64,000 nucleotides of DNA from Escherichia coli (GTDB taxonomy: Bacteria; Pseudomonadota; Gammaproteobacteria; Enterobacterales; Enterobacteriaceae): NCBI RefSeq assembly GCF_045037415.1, contig NZ_CP173438.1. One strand, written 5' to 3'. A program made the position numbers. How positions within the stretch are numbered: position 1 is the first letter of the stretch; the number at the start of each line of letters is the position of its first letter. Below, piece after piece: positions 1 to 6,000 of this stretch.

Positions 1-3000
1 TTTATTTGTGCAATTTAGTGAATTTGCTTTTTGTTGGCTTTATTTGATGTGTATCACATTTTGTGTGTTATTTTTCTGTGAAAAGAAAGTCCGTAAAAAT
101 GCATTTAGACGATCTTTTATGCTGTAAATTCAATTCACCATGATGTTTTTATCTGAGTGTATTCTTGTTGTTAGAATTTTATTCTGGTTTAATTTTGTTT
201 TGTGGGTTAAAAGATCGTTTAAATCAATATTTACAACATAAAAAACTAAATTTAACTTATTGCGTGAAGAGTATTTCCGGGCCGGAAGCATATATCCAGG
301 GGCCCGACAGAAGGGGGAAACATGGCGCATCATGAAGTCATCAGTCGGTCAGGAAATGCGTTTTTGCTGAATATACGCGAGAGCGTGCTGTTGCTCGGCT
401 CTATGTCTGAAATGCATTTTTTTTACTGATAGGTATTTCTTCTATTCACAGTGACAGGGTCATTCTGGCTATGAAGGACTATCTGGTAGGTGGGCACTCC
501 CGTAAGGAGGTCTGCGAGAAATACCAGATGAATAATGGGTATTTCAGTACAACACTGGGGAGACTTATACGGCTGAATGCTCTTGCAGCAAGGCTTGCAC
601 CTTATTATACAGATGAGTCATCGGCATTTGACTAAATTATGGCATTCCGGAGTTTCTGGAAGATAAAAAAAGAAGCCCTTGTCAGAAAGCAGACAGGTTA
701 TATCAGTATTCTGTCGATAAATAACCTGCCCTGAAAATACGAGAATATTATTTGTATTGATCTGGTTATTAAAGGTAATCGGGTCATTTTAAATTGCCAG
801 ATATCTCTGGTGTGTTCAGTAATGAAAAAGAGGTTGTTATTTATGATTAAGTCGGTTATTGCCGGTGCGGTAGCTATGGCAGTGGTGTCTTTTGGTGTAA
901 ATGCTGCTCTAACTACTCCACAGGGGCAGGGTAGAGTAACCTTTAACGGAACTGTTGTTGATGCTCCATGCAGCATTTCTCAGAAATCAGCTGATCAGTC
1001 TATTGATTTTGGACAGCTTTCAAAAAGCTTCCTTCAAGCAGGAGGCGTATCCAAACCAATGAATTTAGATATTGAATTGGTTAATTGTGATATCACTTCA
1101 TTTAAGGGGGGGGAGGAGTCTCGGCAGCAAAAAAAGGGACTGTGAAGCTGGCTTTTAGTGGTCCAAGGGTTTCTGGTCATAATGAGGAGTTAGATACCAG
1201 CGGGGGGACAGGTACTGCGATTGTAGTTCAGGCTGCAGGTAAAAACGTTTCTTTCGATGGCACAGAAGGTGATGCTAATACCCTGAAAGATGGTGATAAT
1301 GTGCTGCATTATACTGCGATTGTTAAGAAGTCGTCAGCCAATAATGCCCAAGTCACTGAGGGTGCTTTTTCTGCAGTCGCAACCGGTGATGCTGCCAACT
1401 TACTGATTTAGTGTATGATGGTGTTTTTGAGGTGCTCCAGTGGCTTCTGTTTCTATCAGCTGTCCCTCCTGTTCAGCTACTGACGGGGTGGTGCGTAACG
1501 GCAAAAGCACCGCCGGACATCAGCGCTATCTCTGCTCTCACTGCCGTAAAACATGGCAACTGCAGTTCACTTACACCGCTTCTCAACCCGGTACGCACCA
1601 GAAAATCATTGATATGGCCATGAATGGCGTTGGATGCCGGGCAACAGCCCGCATTATGGGCGTTGGCCTCAACACGATTTTACGTCACTTAAAAAACTCA
1701 GGCCGCAGTCGGTAACCTCGCGCATACAGCCGGGCAGTGACGTCATCGTCTGCGCGGAAATGGGCGAACAGTGGGGCTATGTCGGGGCTAAATCGCGCCA
1801 GCGCTGGCTGTTTTACGCGTATGACAGGCTCCGGAAGACGGTTGTTGCGCACGTATTCGGTGAACGCACGATGGCGACGCTGGGGCGTCTTATGAGCCTG
1901 CTGTCACCCTTTGACGTGGTGATATGGATGACGGATGGCTGGCCGCTGTATGAATCCCGCCTGAAGGGAAAGCTGCACGTAATCAGCAAGCGATATACGC
2001 AGCGAATTGAGCGGCATAACCTGAATCTGAGGCAGCACCTGGCACGGCTGGGACGGAAGTCGCTGTCGTTCTCAAAATCGGTGGAGCTGCATGACAAAGT
2101 CATCGGGCATTATCTGAACATAAAACACTATCAATAAGTTGGAGTCATTACCTACAACGTTTATCGACCTCACACGAACAACGATGGTTTACCGCCTTGC
2201 TTACATGAAGAAAAGTGGAAACAGGTTATTCCGGTGTCCTGATTTTGTGAACCACTACAATAATCCTTTTTCACAGACTTGTCAGCAGCCAGCATTTATG
2301 TTCTTTTACCTGCGGGAATTTATCCGTCTGCCTGTCGGGACTACTCTGTCATACAGAAATCAGGTAGGAATAAATTGTAGTGGAAAGTCGATGTTTACCG
2401 GATGACTGATGCGCGCTTGTACACAGACAGTGTGTTTCAGTAATATGGAGAATAATGAAATGAATAACACAGACACATTAGAAAAAATAATCAGACACCA
2501 AAAAAACAAAGACCCCGCATATCCCTTTCGGGAACATTTGTTGATGCAGCTCTGTATTCGCACAAATAAAAGAATGCAGGATAATATATCTGAATTTCTG
2601 GGGGTGTATGGAATAAATCACTCAGCATATATGGTTCTCACCACATTATTCGCAGCGGAGAACCATTGTCTGTCACCTTCAGAGATAAGCCAGAAACTTC
2701 AGTTTACCAGAACTAATATTACCCGCATTACAGATTTTTTAGAAAAAGCCGGATATGTAAAAAGGACGGATAGCAGGGAGGATCGCCGTGCTAAAAAAAT
2801 CAGTCTGACATCTGAAGGTATGTTTTTTATTCAGAGGCTCACTCTTGCACAAAGCATGTATCTGAAAGAAATCTGGGATTATCTGACCCATGATGAACAG
2901 GAACTGTTTGAAGTCATTAATAAAAAGTTACTGGCACATTTTTCTGATGCCAGCTCATAAAGTGCGAAATATCTGAGGATGCTGGATAGCTTCAGGCAAG

Positions 3001-6000
3001 AGAATAATGATTCTTGCAGATGTGTTTTTCCGGATACAAAAACAAAAGTAAAAAATTGCAGCGCCAGGCCACCTTTCAAAGCAGGGAGGCCTGTACCGCG
3101 TCGAAAATTTCAGCCAGTTAATGTAATTGTCTGAACCAGGCACTTCGCCCGGGCAGGAGAAGGAGCGTGGTTGCGGTCATCCTGTATACTGAAGTCGTTA
3201 TGAAGGAATAATACAAATAATTGCCCGTTTTCTCTGTACGATAGAGGCAGGTGTGTATGATTGCATTACTATGTTTTTGTGATATAAAAAACTAAATGGT
3301 GAGATATGCATTTTAAAATATAACAAAAATCACCATGAAATAAGAATAATTATCCACGGAGAACATAAACTGCAGACTGTTACAATGCATGCTGTTCATC
3401 TTGACAATGTCGGTAATGACTCCAACTTATTGATAGTGTTTTATGTTCAGATAATGCCCGATGACTTTGTCATGCAGCTCCACCGATTTTGAGAACGACA
3501 GCGACTTCCGTCCCAGCCGTGCCAGGTGCTGCCTCAGATTCAGGTTATGCCGCTCAATTCGCTGCGTATATCGCTTGCTGATTACGTGCAGCTTTCCCTT
3601 CAGGCGGGATTCATACAGCGGCCAGCCATCCGTCATCCATATCACCACGTCAAAGGGTGACAGCAGGCTCATAAGACGCCCCAGCGTCGCCATCGTGCGT
3701 TCACCGAATACGTGCGCAACAACCGTCTTCCGGAGCCTGTCATACGCGTAAAACAGCCAGCGCTGGCGCGATTTAGCCCCGACATAGCCCCACTGTTCGC
3801 CCATTTCCGCGCAGACGATGACGTCACTGCCCGGCTGTATGCGCGAGGTTACCGACTGCGGCCTGAGTTTTTTAAGTGACGTAAAATCGTGTTGAGGCCA
3901 ACGCCCATAATGCGGGCTGTTGCCCGGCATCCAACGCCATTCATGGCCATATCAATGATTTTCTGGTGCGTACCGGGTTGAGAAGCGGTGTAAGTGAACT
4001 GCAGTTGCCATGTTTTACGGCAGTGAGAGCAGAGATAGCGCTGATGTCCGGCGGTGCTTTTGCCGTTACGCACCACCCCGTCAGTAGCTGAACAGGAGGG
4101 ACAGCTGATAGAAACAGAAGCCACTGGAGCACCTCAAAAACACCATCATACACTAAATCAGTAAGTTGGCAGCATCACCCAATCTGCTGACAGACGAAGA
4201 TAATGAACCCGTTATGGTTTTTAACGGAGAGAGGAATGTACTGGCAGACAGTCTGAAACCACAGCCTCTGATTCTTCCGGTCAAGGGAAAATAAGCGTAA
4301 TGTTCATCACCAGATTATGTACGATGAGTTTTCCACTGTTTATAGCAATTATCTTGCTAATAACCAGACAGGAGTAACCAGACCAACCGAAAACACCGGG
4401 AAGGTGATTACCCGCTGGCAGAGGAAATCCGGTTTTTTTTGATGTCAGCCATAACGTGTTTGACAATAAAGCATCATGAAAGGGTGTTAATGAGTCCATG
4501 GGATAATTCATAAAAATAATTTACTGTGTTATCCTTTTCAAAAGAAATATTCAGAAGATAACCCCTGGCTGACAACCAGGGGAAGGGGGCATTAACAGTG
4601 TTATTATTGGTGAATAAATTATTACTTGTGTGCAGGATACACTAATGCAATATCTACTGATACTGTATGCCAGTATGTTTCATGCCTGCCGCTGAAAACG
4701 GCAATATCCAGGGCCAGATATATTCACCATTCATATTTCTGCATTTCTGTACAATTTTCTCAGAAAGCGTCTCATCAATTCTTTCACGCAACTTCTCCTG
4801 CTGTCTTAAAATACTTTCGCATATTTCGAAATCATCTTCCTGCATCAGCATTTCGGCGCATTTAATGATTTCTGCCCGTTCATGCAGCACAGAGGAATGA
4901 TTATAGAGCCAGTTTACAAACAGCAATGCTTCCGGATATTGCCCCCATAACGGGTGGTATGTGGCATAATAATCTTCGGCAGTATCCGGACCGCCTGAAA
5001 AGTTATGCCATACAGCAAGTGGAAATGGATGCAGATTTCCGCACAGTATTTCTGCGATGTAAGTATTTGCCGCAAAGCCGCGACGAAATGCAGTTGCAGC
5101 TTTTACCAGTTCCCCATTAAGAAAATGCAGAAGGCCGAGTTCATACCAGTAAGGTGAAAATTCATCTGCATGTTCCTGCAGTATATGGCGTGCCTGTTCA
5201 TGAGCGCCAGTGCGTAACAGTTCCGGTCCCAGTAGCCAGCGTGCACCATGATTATCTTCGGGATTGTAATCCAGTATTTTTTCAATGAGCATGATGGCAT
5301 CCTGATGACGCTGTAAATGTGCATTTGCCAGGATTGCCGCATAGAGGGCACGAAGAAAAGGTCGGTTGTCAGGATGTATCCAGATGATTCTGCCACTGAA
5401 ACCTTCAGGGATAAGACGATTGCCAATTGCCAGCCCTTTAAGGGCAGCATTCAGCGCCTTACGCGGGGCATTCTGCTCCAGAAATACGTATGCCAAGTGA
5501 GCGTGTACATCAATAAAGTCATTCTCCTGTCGGGCAAGGCGCCTGAGTTTGTTGATGTAACTTGTTTCGCTGATTTCATCCGCATCGTATGCATCAATCA
5601 GTTCTTCAAACTCATCCAGCAACGAGCCAAACCAGGTTTCCGGAAATATGAAACAGCCCTGGTTATCGTTCACTTCAAAGCGTAATTTGCCAGTCATATT
5701 CTGAACCTGTAAAAAAGGATGGACCATAACCTGCAGGCTATAAAAATTGTGATGCCTGGCATCGGTGTCCTTTTATTGTCCGGGATTAACGTTGCCCATG
5801 ATAATACAGTGAATTCTGTTCTGTGGTAAGACGTTGAGTTATTGAATGAGAACCTCAGCCTGGCTGATGGTTCCGCCGGCATAAAAAAGAAATTGATTGA
5901 GGCGGGTGCTCTTCCCCTTAAGAGGAAGAGCATGTGTGTAAATGGCGTTCAGTCACCTTTTCAGTGGATTGTTAACTTTTGCATATTCAAACGGACTGAT

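What the first reader, a model, noticed from the sequence alone, without database searches (positions are those of the whole stretch)
1385..4179. Two identical IS1 copies in inverted orientation bracketing the papX module
IS1 at 1385-2152 (+) and 3412-4179 (-) encode identical InsA/InsB and flank a 1259-bp segment carrying the pap remnant and papX. I could not find matching 8-9 bp target-site duplications at the outer or inner ends, which points to deletion or rearrangement by recombination between IS1 copies rather than two simple insertions. The inverted pair could also mediate inversion of the enclosed segment.
Basis: seen in the sequence. Interest (0 to 1): 0.45.

Follow-up and report, generated by a model that had tools for sequence, protein, structure and literature searches.

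The report
IS1 pair flipping the papX remnant
Two identical IS1 insertion sequences mark the places where a uropathogenic E. coli island lost its P-fimbria and neighbouring genes, and they also let the surviving papX gene flip orientation; this is ordinary insertion-sequence biology in a well-sequenced locus.

Summary
Window 1385-2152 (+) and 3412-4179 (-) are two 768-bp IS1A copies, 100% identical, with their IRL ends facing outward. They enclose 1,259 bp, and no 8-9 bp target duplication exists in any pairing.

The window is the pheV-proximal end of GI-pheV of E. coli ST131 (EC958, JJ1886). Nissle 1917-type strains carry the same structure.

Both IS1 copies sit at deletion junctions.
- The left copy cuts papA 21 nt before its stop codon. 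It abuts the last 107 bp of an IS3-family element lying in front of papX. Strain KGu016 shares the papA::IS1 junction but still has papE-F-G and the whole IS3 element.
- The right copy joins the papX downstream region to the last 37 codons of a phosphoethanolamine-transferase gene. A related island has 6.6 kb between those two points, and CFT073 has about 19 kb there, including hlyCABD.

The predicted inversion is real. Of 594 complete genomes with this structure, 556 have the window's orientation and 38 have the papX segment exactly flipped. Flipped forms occur on at least two flanking-core backgrounds, and also in a related structure with a longer segment.

This is well-understood IS behaviour in an annotated locus. 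Interest is low.

The parts
322..635 (+). papB pseudogene, with a -1 frameshift in the T-run at 417-424
   Evidence: Alignment to intact papB of strain 961 shows 8 T versus 9 T, giving premature stops. RefSeq annotates only the 54-aa C-terminal ORF.
843..1384 (+). papA pseudogene, with a 1-bp deletion in the G-run at 1106-1113, cut by IS1 21 nt before its stop codon
   Evidence: Window 1-1384 is 98.6% identical to strain 961 (L011 10216-11601). Homology ends exactly at 1384, where the intact allele continues TTTAATTTAAGTTACCAGTAA.
1385..2152 (+). Left IS1A copy (IRL at 1385, IRR at 2152). Its outer IRL junction with papA is conserved in relatives; its inner IRR junction is a deletion endpoint.
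   Evidence: KGu016 has the same GCAGTCGCAACC|IS1 junction but a different IRR-side flank.
2153..2259 (+). Terminal 107 bp (right end) of an IS3-family element whose remaining ~1.15 kb has been deleted
   Evidence: It matches only IS3-family transposase 3' ends elsewhere (H88-H99). The complete 1,253-bp element lies between papG and papX in KGu016, and its right end corresponds to window 2259.
2260..2408 (+). papG-papX intergenic region
   Evidence: Window 2260-3026 aligns to CFT073 papG-papX-downstream at 95.7% and to strain 961 at 95.1%.
2409..2960 (+). papX, an intact 183-aa MarR-family regulator
   Evidence: ORF. RefSeq product PapX, WP_001774069.1. MarR/MprA-like NCBIfam hits.
2961..3411 (+). 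Native papX/sfaX downstream sequence, ending at the IRR junction of the right IS1
   Evidence: Window 2260-3411 aligns to L004 14001-15153 at 95.8%, and homology stops exactly at 3411.
3412..4179 (-). Right IS1A copy (IRR at 3412, IRL at 4179). Its outer IRL junction is conserved in 725 genomes; its inner junction is a deletion endpoint.
   Evidence: Strain 23CRST032 has the same IRL junction but unrelated DNA on the IRR side.
4181..4294 (+). 3' remnant (last 37 codons and stop) of a phosphoethanolamine-transferase gene truncated by the right IS1
   Evidence: Translation NLLTDEDNEPVMVFNGERNVLADSLKPQPLILPVKGK* matches the C-terminus of the L004 enzyme. Genomes without the IS1 have the full gene here (H275-H283).
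4281..7491 (-). Island end, not part of the rearrangement: hypothetical gene, TPR protein (4654-5727), P4-type integrase (5953-7218) and tRNA-Phe pheV (7416-7491)

Best explanation
The two IS1A copies are scars of IS1-associated deletions. These deletions reduced a CFT073-like hly-pap region of the pheV genomic island to a lone papX gene.

Shown: each IS1 keeps a fixed outer (IRL) junction. One is in papA, 21 nt before the stop codon; the other is in a phosphoethanolamine-transferase gene. The inner (IRR) junctions are deletion endpoints. On the pap side, papH to papG and most of an IS3-family element are gone. On the integrase side, 6.6 kb or more is gone.

Inferred: each deletion arose either by intramolecular IS1 transposition (classical IS1 adjacent deletion) or by recombination with a further, directly oriented IS1 copy.

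Shown: the two identical 768-bp copies are inverted repeats, and the 1,259-bp segment between them occurs in both orientations among complete genomes, with the inner flanks precisely exchanged.

Inferred: the flip is ordinary homologous (RecA-type) recombination within IS1. It recurs, and it is probably neutral, because papX sees the same IS1 IRR end upstream in either orientation.
For: Identity and geometry of the copies.

No target duplication in any pairing. As a positive control, a third IS1 inside papX in strain Ecol_732 has a clean 8-bp duplication, AAAGAATG.

Left copy:
- The IRL junction is at papA codon 181 of an intact 98.6%-identical allele.
- KGu016 shares this junction but retains papE-F-G, a complete IS3 element and papX. 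The window therefore lacks a further 3.4 kb.
- Relative to strain 961, KGu016 lacks 5.2 kb. The window lacks 7.5 kb plus ~1.15 kb of the IS3 element.

Right copy:
- Window 2260-3411 and 4180-7539 map to L004 14001-15153 and 21745-25104, so 6,591 bp are missing between them.
- In CFT073 the corresponding interval is ~19 kb and holds hlyCABD.
- The remnant of the transferase gene is shown.

Inversion:
- Thirty-eight genomes match the flipped left junction and 38 the flipped right junction; 556 match the native left junction.
- SaT040, OZ040555, NR3736, strain 9 and MB1341 were read directly, and their inner flanks are swapped exactly.
- Flipped forms occur with EC958-type core flanks (8 genomes) and with Nissle-like flanks (22 or more). 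Both backgrounds also have native forms.
- The longer-segment FDAARGOS_536 and KKa019 structures are also found in both orientations.
- SaT040 and ZH063 are PacBio assemblies. Clonal sets share one orientation, so the orientation is heritable.

IS1-IS1 recombination at this locus: hybrid IS1 copies in 23CRST032 and FDAARGOS_536.
Against: - No genome was found with either IS1 as a simple insertion flanked by a duplication. The order of events and the deletion mechanism are therefore inferred.
- Because the segment flips, one cannot say which IS1 copy made which inner deletion.
- Orientation in an assembly is a consensus. Within-culture heterogeneity was not tested.
- Recurrence within ST131 clade C was not resolved phylogenetically. 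The count of independent flips (at least 3) rests on flank type and structure type only.
- Neutrality of the flip is an argument from symmetry, not a measurement.
Confidence: 0.85

Rival explanations
1. A single IS1 first inserted in papA. An intramolecular replicative transposition in the inversion mode ('duplicative inversion') into the phosphoethanolamine-transferase gene then created the second, inverted copy. Inner deletions followed.
For: This pathway predicts exactly the observed geometry: both IRL ends outward on the old and new outer flanks, and both IRR ends inward. The copies are identical in ST131 and Nissle. Since the segment flips freely, its present orientation does not argue against this history.
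Against: The diagnostic inverted 9-bp target duplication (left inner flank equal to the reverse complement of the right outer flank) is absent, at 3 of 9 matches. Later inner deletions would have erased it anyway. Two independent insertions give this geometry by chance one time in four. In KGu016 the two copies differ at several positions.
Confidence: 0.25
2. Two independent simple IS1 insertions whose target duplications have merely decayed by point mutation, with no deletion.
For: None beyond the presence of two complete IS1 copies.
Against: The sequences on the two sides of each IS1 are 3.4-7.5 kb and 6.6-19 kb apart in relatives. Flank comparisons show no residual similarity.
Confidence: 0.01
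3. IS1-papX-IS1 is a composite transposon that moved into this site as a unit.
For: Inverted IS1 pairs with IRL ends outward are the architecture of IS1 composite transposons. An IS1-flanked decarboxylase/antiporter cluster sits next door in some relatives.
Against: There is no 9-bp duplication at the outer flanks. The outer flanks, papA and the transferase gene, are not adjacent in any reference. papX lies in its native order between them, as in CFT073 and KGu016. The unit was not seen at any other location: matches to the segment with both junctions are all at pheV islands.
Confidence: 0.02
4. The 38 flipped genomes are assembly artefacts caused by a 768-bp inverted repeat around a short segment.
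For: Short-read or hybrid assemblers can mis-orient a 1.26-kb segment between repeats. Sequencing technology is unknown for most of the 38.
Against: SaT040 and ZH063 are PacBio assemblies. Clonally related isolates share the orientation: 447/439/446/463, MSB1_7A/3B, S21EC/S22EC, and the OZ and SK series. Both junctions agree in the same number of genomes, 38 each.
Confidence: 0.05

Closest known systems
IS1-mediated adjacent deletions (gal and lac systems of E. coli K-12; Reif and Saedler 1975; Turlan and Chandler 1995; recalled from memory, not checked here)
   Same: The IS stays in place with one conserved junction. The other end abuts variable, progressively more distant sequence (the nested series: intact operon, then KGu016, then ST131). 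No target duplication remains.
   Different: These are natural, fixed events in a pathogenicity island, inferred from comparison, not selected in the laboratory. Recombination with a second IS1 copy cannot be excluded as the cause.
Inversion by homologous recombination between inverted IS copies, as seen for IS-flanked chromosomal inversions in E. coli (ST131 examples in PMC11739808)
   Same: Identical inverted repeats, an exact exchange of inner flanks, no specific recombinase or sites, and both orientations present in a population.
   Different: The segment is very small (1.26 kb) and carries a single regulator gene. The published ST131 survey discusses large core-synteny inversions and does not mention this one.
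Degenerate pap loci of GI-pheV in ST131 (EC958, JJ1886) and GEI II of Nissle 1917
   Same: It is this very locus. The literature states that EC958 and JJ1886 GI-pheV hold only remnants of pap, and that modules are separated by insertion sequences (PMC11537424). JJ1886 is reported to carry papI and papX (PMC5369007).
   Different: The papers read do not give the junction-level reconstruction or the orientation polymorphism.
Programmed invertible switches (fimS with FimB/FimE; Hin, Gin, Cin)
   Same: A short DNA segment next to fimbrial regulatory genes exists in two orientations.
   Different: There are no short specific inverted repeats and no dedicated recombinase. The repeats are whole IS1 elements, the local context of papX is the same in both orientations, and the minority orientation is only 6%.

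Membership tests
IS1 family insertion sequence (IS1A) | 768-bp element with imperfect ~23-bp terminal inverted repeats | tested here: met
   Both copies are 768 bp. The ends GGTGATGCTGCCAACTTACTGAT and GGTAATGACTCCAACTTATTGAT match at 18 of 23 positions.
IS1 family insertion sequence (IS1A) | insA and insB' ORFs joined by a -1 programmed frameshift at an A6C motif, encoding the InsAB' transposase | tested here: met
   ORFs at 1440-1715 and 1634-2137. AAAAAAC lies at 1691-1697. NCBIfam NF033558 profile positions 1-81 and 75-199 are covered by the two ORFs. RefSeq annotates 'IS1A family transposase, programmed frameshift'.
IS1 family insertion sequence (IS1A) | 8-9 bp target-site duplication at a simple insertion | tested here: not met
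   No duplication for either copy. This is explained by the adjacent deletions. A third IS1 in the same locus of Ecol_732 does have an 8-bp duplication. This feature describes an insertion event, not the element, so membership stands.
IS1 composite transposon | Two IS1 copies bracketing a passenger, moved as a unit, with a 9-bp duplication at the outer ends and contiguous outer flanks at empty sites | tested here: not met
   There is no outer duplication. The outer flanks are 27 kb or more apart in CFT073, and papX lies in native synteny.
pap (P fimbria) operon | papI-B-A-H-C-D-J-K-E-F-G gene set with intact major pilin, usher, chaperone and adhesin | tested here: not met
   papB and papA are frameshifted, papA is truncated, and papH to papG are absent. 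Only papX is intact in the window; papI lies just upstream of position 1.
PapX / MarR-family regulator | Full-length winged-helix MarR-type protein, orthologous to CFT073 PapX | tested here: met
   The 183-aa ORF is intact. MarR/MprA family hits. DNA identity to CFT073 papX is 95.7%. Function (flhD repression) was not tested; it is known from the literature cited in PMC9820224.
Site-specific invertible switch | A dedicated recombinase and short specific inverted repeats bounding a promoter or gene segment | tested here: not met
   The repeats are complete IS1 copies. No invertase gene lies in 1-8000; the only recombinase is the P4-type island integrase.

The most novel reading that the evidence does not exclude
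The IS1-bracketed papX cassette could act as an accidental expression switch. In the window's orientation papX lies downstream of the phase-variable papBA promoter, through an inward-reading IS1. In the flipped orientation it lies downstream of the integrase/TPR genes. Flipping might then change the level of the PapX motility repressor and be under selection in some ST131 and ST73 sublineages.
Probability: 0.05. Interest if true: 0.45.

Novelty: already known. Interest (0 to 1): 0.2.

Why it matters
The finding explains at base-pair level why the pandemic ST131 lineage and the probiotic Nissle 1917 carry papX but no P fimbriae or haemolysin at pheV. Two IS1-anchored deletions removed those genes. 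The finding also documents a small, recurrent, heritable inversion. Assemblies and pangenome graphs should treat it as a genuine polymorphism and not as an error. It reveals no new mechanism. Its practical value is for annotation, for typing of GI-pheV variants, and as a natural example of IS1-driven island decay.

Tried and rejected
- Target duplications. I searched 4-12 bp repeats in six flank pairings: simple insertion (two pairings), composite, inner pair and post-inversion (two pairings). None was found.
- Promoter and terminator scan of 1-4800. It gave 13 promoter-like sites against 9.1 expected and nothing distinctive upstream of papX, so it could not show whether papX has its own promoter.
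- Literature. No paper held describes the IS1 pair or its inversion. The primary PapX paper (PMC2573324) is not in the library, so statements about papX co-transcription with pap are not used.
- Lost calls.
- Inversion history from orientation. I considered that papX being co-oriented with papA rules out an inversion history. I rejected this, because the segment flips freely and its orientation carries no historical information.
- Which IS1 made the second pap-side deletion. This cannot be decided, because a flip exchanges the inner junctions between the two copies.
- Resolving independent flips within ST131 clade C. I did not attempt this: the 8-40 kb of flanking sequence available per genome has too few SNPs.
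Full report
**1. The observation**

The repeat finder reports a single long inverted repeat in window 1-8000. Direct comparison shows that 1385-2152 and the reverse complement of 3412-4179 are both 768 bp with no mismatch. They are the only IS1 ends in the 64-kb window.

Each copy has the IS1 terminal repeats (18 of 23 positions match). Each has insA (1440-1715) and insB (1634-2137) overlapping at an AAAAAAC frameshift motif. Both ORFs match NCBIfam NF033558. The IRL ends face outward and the IRR ends face inward.

The enclosed segment, 2153-3411, is 1,259 bp and holds an intact 183-aa papX. A systematic comparison of the four flanks in six pairings found no 8-12 bp duplication.

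**2. Where this is**

Window 1-8000 is 100% identical to E. coli ST131 chromosomes, including EC958 and JJ1886. The annotated order in EC958 is papI, papB', papA', IS1, papX, IS1, hypothetical gene, TPR protein, P4-type integrase, tRNA-Phe (pheV), then yqgA and speC. This is the pheV-proximal end of the genomic island GI-pheV.

A Nissle 1917 derivative has the same structure and the same junctions.

The island sequences (1-1384, 2153-3411, 4180-7400) show 0-1 mismatches between ST131 and Nissle-like genomes. The adjacent core differs by about 1.1%. The structure has therefore been shared horizontally as part of the island.

**3. The left IS1 sits at a deletion junction**

- An intact pap operon with a 98.6%-identical papA (strain 961) aligns to window 1-1384 and stops exactly there. 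IS1 interrupts papA 21 nt before its stop codon.
- The sequence on the other side of IS1 (2153-2259) is not pap DNA. It matches only the 3' ends of IS3-family transposase genes.
- Strain KGu016 provides an intermediate. It has the same GCAGTCGCAACC|IS1 junction. After its IS1 come papE, papF, papG, a complete 1,253-bp IS3-family element, papX, then the same right IS1.
- Relative to strain 961, KGu016 lacks 5.2 kb (the end of papA to the end of papK). The window lacks 7.5 kb plus about 1.15 kb of the IS3 element.
- The IRL junction is therefore fixed, and the IRR side shows nested deletions.
- papB (T-run at 417-424) and papA (G-run at 1106-1113) also carry frameshifts. The pap locus is thoroughly decayed.

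**4. The right IS1 also sits at a deletion junction**

- In a related island at pheU that carries a sfa operon (FDAARGOS_1267, L004), window 2260-3411 aligns to 14001-15153 and window 4180-7539 aligns to 21745-25104. Both alignments break exactly at the IS1 ends. The 6,591 bp between them are absent from the window.
- Window 4181-4294 encodes the last 37 residues of a phosphoethanolamine transferase. Genomes without the IS1 have the whole gene at that place.
- CFT073 GI-pheV has the same synteny on both sides. There, about 19 kb including hlyCABD lies between this gene remnant and papX.
- The right junction pair occurs in 687 genomes in the window's orientation, including phylogroup-F strain IAI39. 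It is therefore more widespread than the ST131-type left junction.
- Strain 23CRST032 keeps the IS1|CAATCTGCTGAC junction but has unrelated genes on the IRR side. Its IS1 is a hybrid: nt 1-55 are IS1A-like and nt 64-157 are of a divergent type. This shows IS1-IS1 homologous recombination at this position.

**5. A positive control for target duplications**

In strain Ecol_732 a third, 96%-identical IS1 interrupts papX. It is flanked by a clean 8-bp duplication, AAAGAATG (window 2569-2576). Simple IS1 insertions in this locus therefore do leave the expected mark. Its absence at the two resident copies is meaningful.

**6. The inversion**

I built 1,200-bp queries from 600 bp on each side of an IS1, leaving the IS1 out. 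A genome scores full coverage only if both halves lie on one strand about 768 bp apart.

| Query | Genomes matching |
|---|---|
| Flipped left junction (785-1384 + reverse complement of 2812-3411) | 38 |
| Flipped right junction | 38 |
| Native left junction | 556 |

- Read directly, SaT040, OZ040555, NR3736, strain 9 and MB1341 have papX on the other strand, and their inner flanks are swapped to the base.
- A query extending into the core sorted the flipped genomes by flank type. Eight have EC958-type flanks: 447/439/446/463, MB1341, UID2309220041, OZ547000 and S6. At least 22 have Nissle-like flanks, including the ST131 clade B strains SaT040 (H22) and ZH063 (H35), which were sequenced with PacBio.
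- Native forms exist on both backgrounds.
- A third structure has a different left IS1 and a 2.0-kb segment (IS3 remnant of about 800 bp plus papX). It also occurs in both orientations: FDAARGOS_536 in one, KKa019 and at least 18 others in the other.
- Clonal sets share one orientation, so the state is inherited and is not assembly noise.

I conclude that at least three independent flips have occurred. About 6% (38 of 594) of genomes with the ST131-type structure carry the minority orientation.

**7. Mechanism**

Shown:
- both IS1 copies are at deletion junctions with conserved outer ends;
- the segment exists in both orientations with exact exchange of inner flanks;
- IS1 hybrids exist at this locus.

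Inferred:
- The deletions arose by IS1 intramolecular transposition (adjacent deletion) or by recombination with transient extra IS1 copies. The sequence cannot distinguish these.
- The second copy may have arisen by an independent insertion or by duplicative inversion. Duplicative inversion predicts the observed IRL-outward geometry, but its diagnostic inverted duplication would have been erased by the later deletions.
- The flip is homologous recombination within IS1.

Because a flip exchanges the inner junctions between copies, one cannot say which copy made which inner deletion.

Both copies carry A at IS1 position 262 in ST131 and Nissle. The three IS1A-type copies with ungapped alignments in KGu016 and FDAARGOS_536 carry T there. 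This is consistent with concerted evolution of the pair.

**8. Consequence**

papX keeps the same IS1 IRR end upstream and the other IS1 downstream in either orientation. Any effect could therefore come only from long read-through transcription. The consensus scan gave nothing useful. I regard the flip as probably neutral, but this was not measured.

**9. Comparison with what is known**

- The element is IS1A by every intrinsic criterion.
- The structure is not a composite transposon, and it is not a programmed switch.
- The literature already states that EC958 and JJ1886 GI-pheV hold only remnants of pap, and that island modules are separated by insertion sequences (PMC11537424).
- JJ1886 is reported to carry papI and papX (PMC5369007).
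- IS1 is the most active insertion sequence in ST131, and inversions are common there (PMC11739808).
- None of the papers read gives the junction-level history or the papX orientation polymorphism. These are details within a well-understood kind of event.

**10. Verdict**

The finding is ordinary IS1 biology: deletion scars plus recombinational inversion, in a locus present and annotated in hundreds of public genomes. Novelty: already known. Interest: 0.2.

Noticed in passing
window 1-7400 versus 7600-13900; loci L003, L012-L014: Island DNA (papIBA', papX segment, TPR-integrase) shows 0-1 mismatches between ST131 and Nissle/ST73-like genomes, while the adjacent core (yqgA-speC-nupG) differs by about 1.1% (72 mismatches in 6.3 kb). 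This indicates recent horizontal sharing of this GI-pheV end.
   Followed up: partly
L009 (SaT040) and rows for ZH063 and CU568-3: ST131 clade B strains (H22, H35) that carry this island have the Nissle-like allele of the yqgA-speC flank, not the EC958 allele. This suggests the island entered them together with flanking core DNA.
   Followed up: no
L017 8234-9001 (strain 23CRST032); L002 10530-11295 (FDAARGOS_536): Mosaic IS1 copies. In 23CRST032 the crossover lies between IS1 nt 55 and 64. In FDAARGOS_536 the left copy has 15 differences in nt 4-103 and then matches the right copy's pattern. These are footprints of IS1-IS1 homologous recombination.
   Followed up: partly
L018 4293-5060 (strain Ecol_732); target corresponds to window 2569-2576: A third, 96%-identical IS1 interrupts papX with an 8-bp duplication, AAAGAATG. 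papX is therefore inactivated in that ST131-type genome.
   Followed up: yes
L002 3979-11282 and L016 1-6271: In FDAARGOS_536 and KKa019 the papI-B-A' side is replaced by a cluster of basic amino acid/polyamine antiporter, Orn/Lys/Arg decarboxylase and a second antiporter. In FDAARGOS_536 this cluster is bracketed by inverted IS1 copies and looks like a composite transposon.
   Followed up: no
window 417-424 and 1106-1113: Single-base frameshifts in homopolymer runs inactivate papB (8 T instead of 9) and papA (loss of the T inside GGGGGTGGG). They are independent of the IS1 truncation.
   Followed up: yes
L013 14238-15746 (strain NR3736): A group II intron (ltrA reverse transcriptase/maturase) is inserted in the IS3-family pseudogene upstream of papI in this one genome.
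   Followed up: no
NZ_CP007799.1 3344573-3345638 (first Nissle 1917 assembly), row H229: This older Nissle assembly shows a different arrangement next to the right flank (IS66 transposase, only 59% of the query). The later Nissle assembly CP022686 and SYNB1934 show the standard structure. This may be an assembly difference.
   Followed up: no
rows H1 and H2 (S1-CHI-01-A, strain 21366): Two ST131-type genomes carry extra insertions (an IS3-family element and ISKpn26) within the 8-kb region, showing continuing IS traffic in this island end.
   Followed up: no
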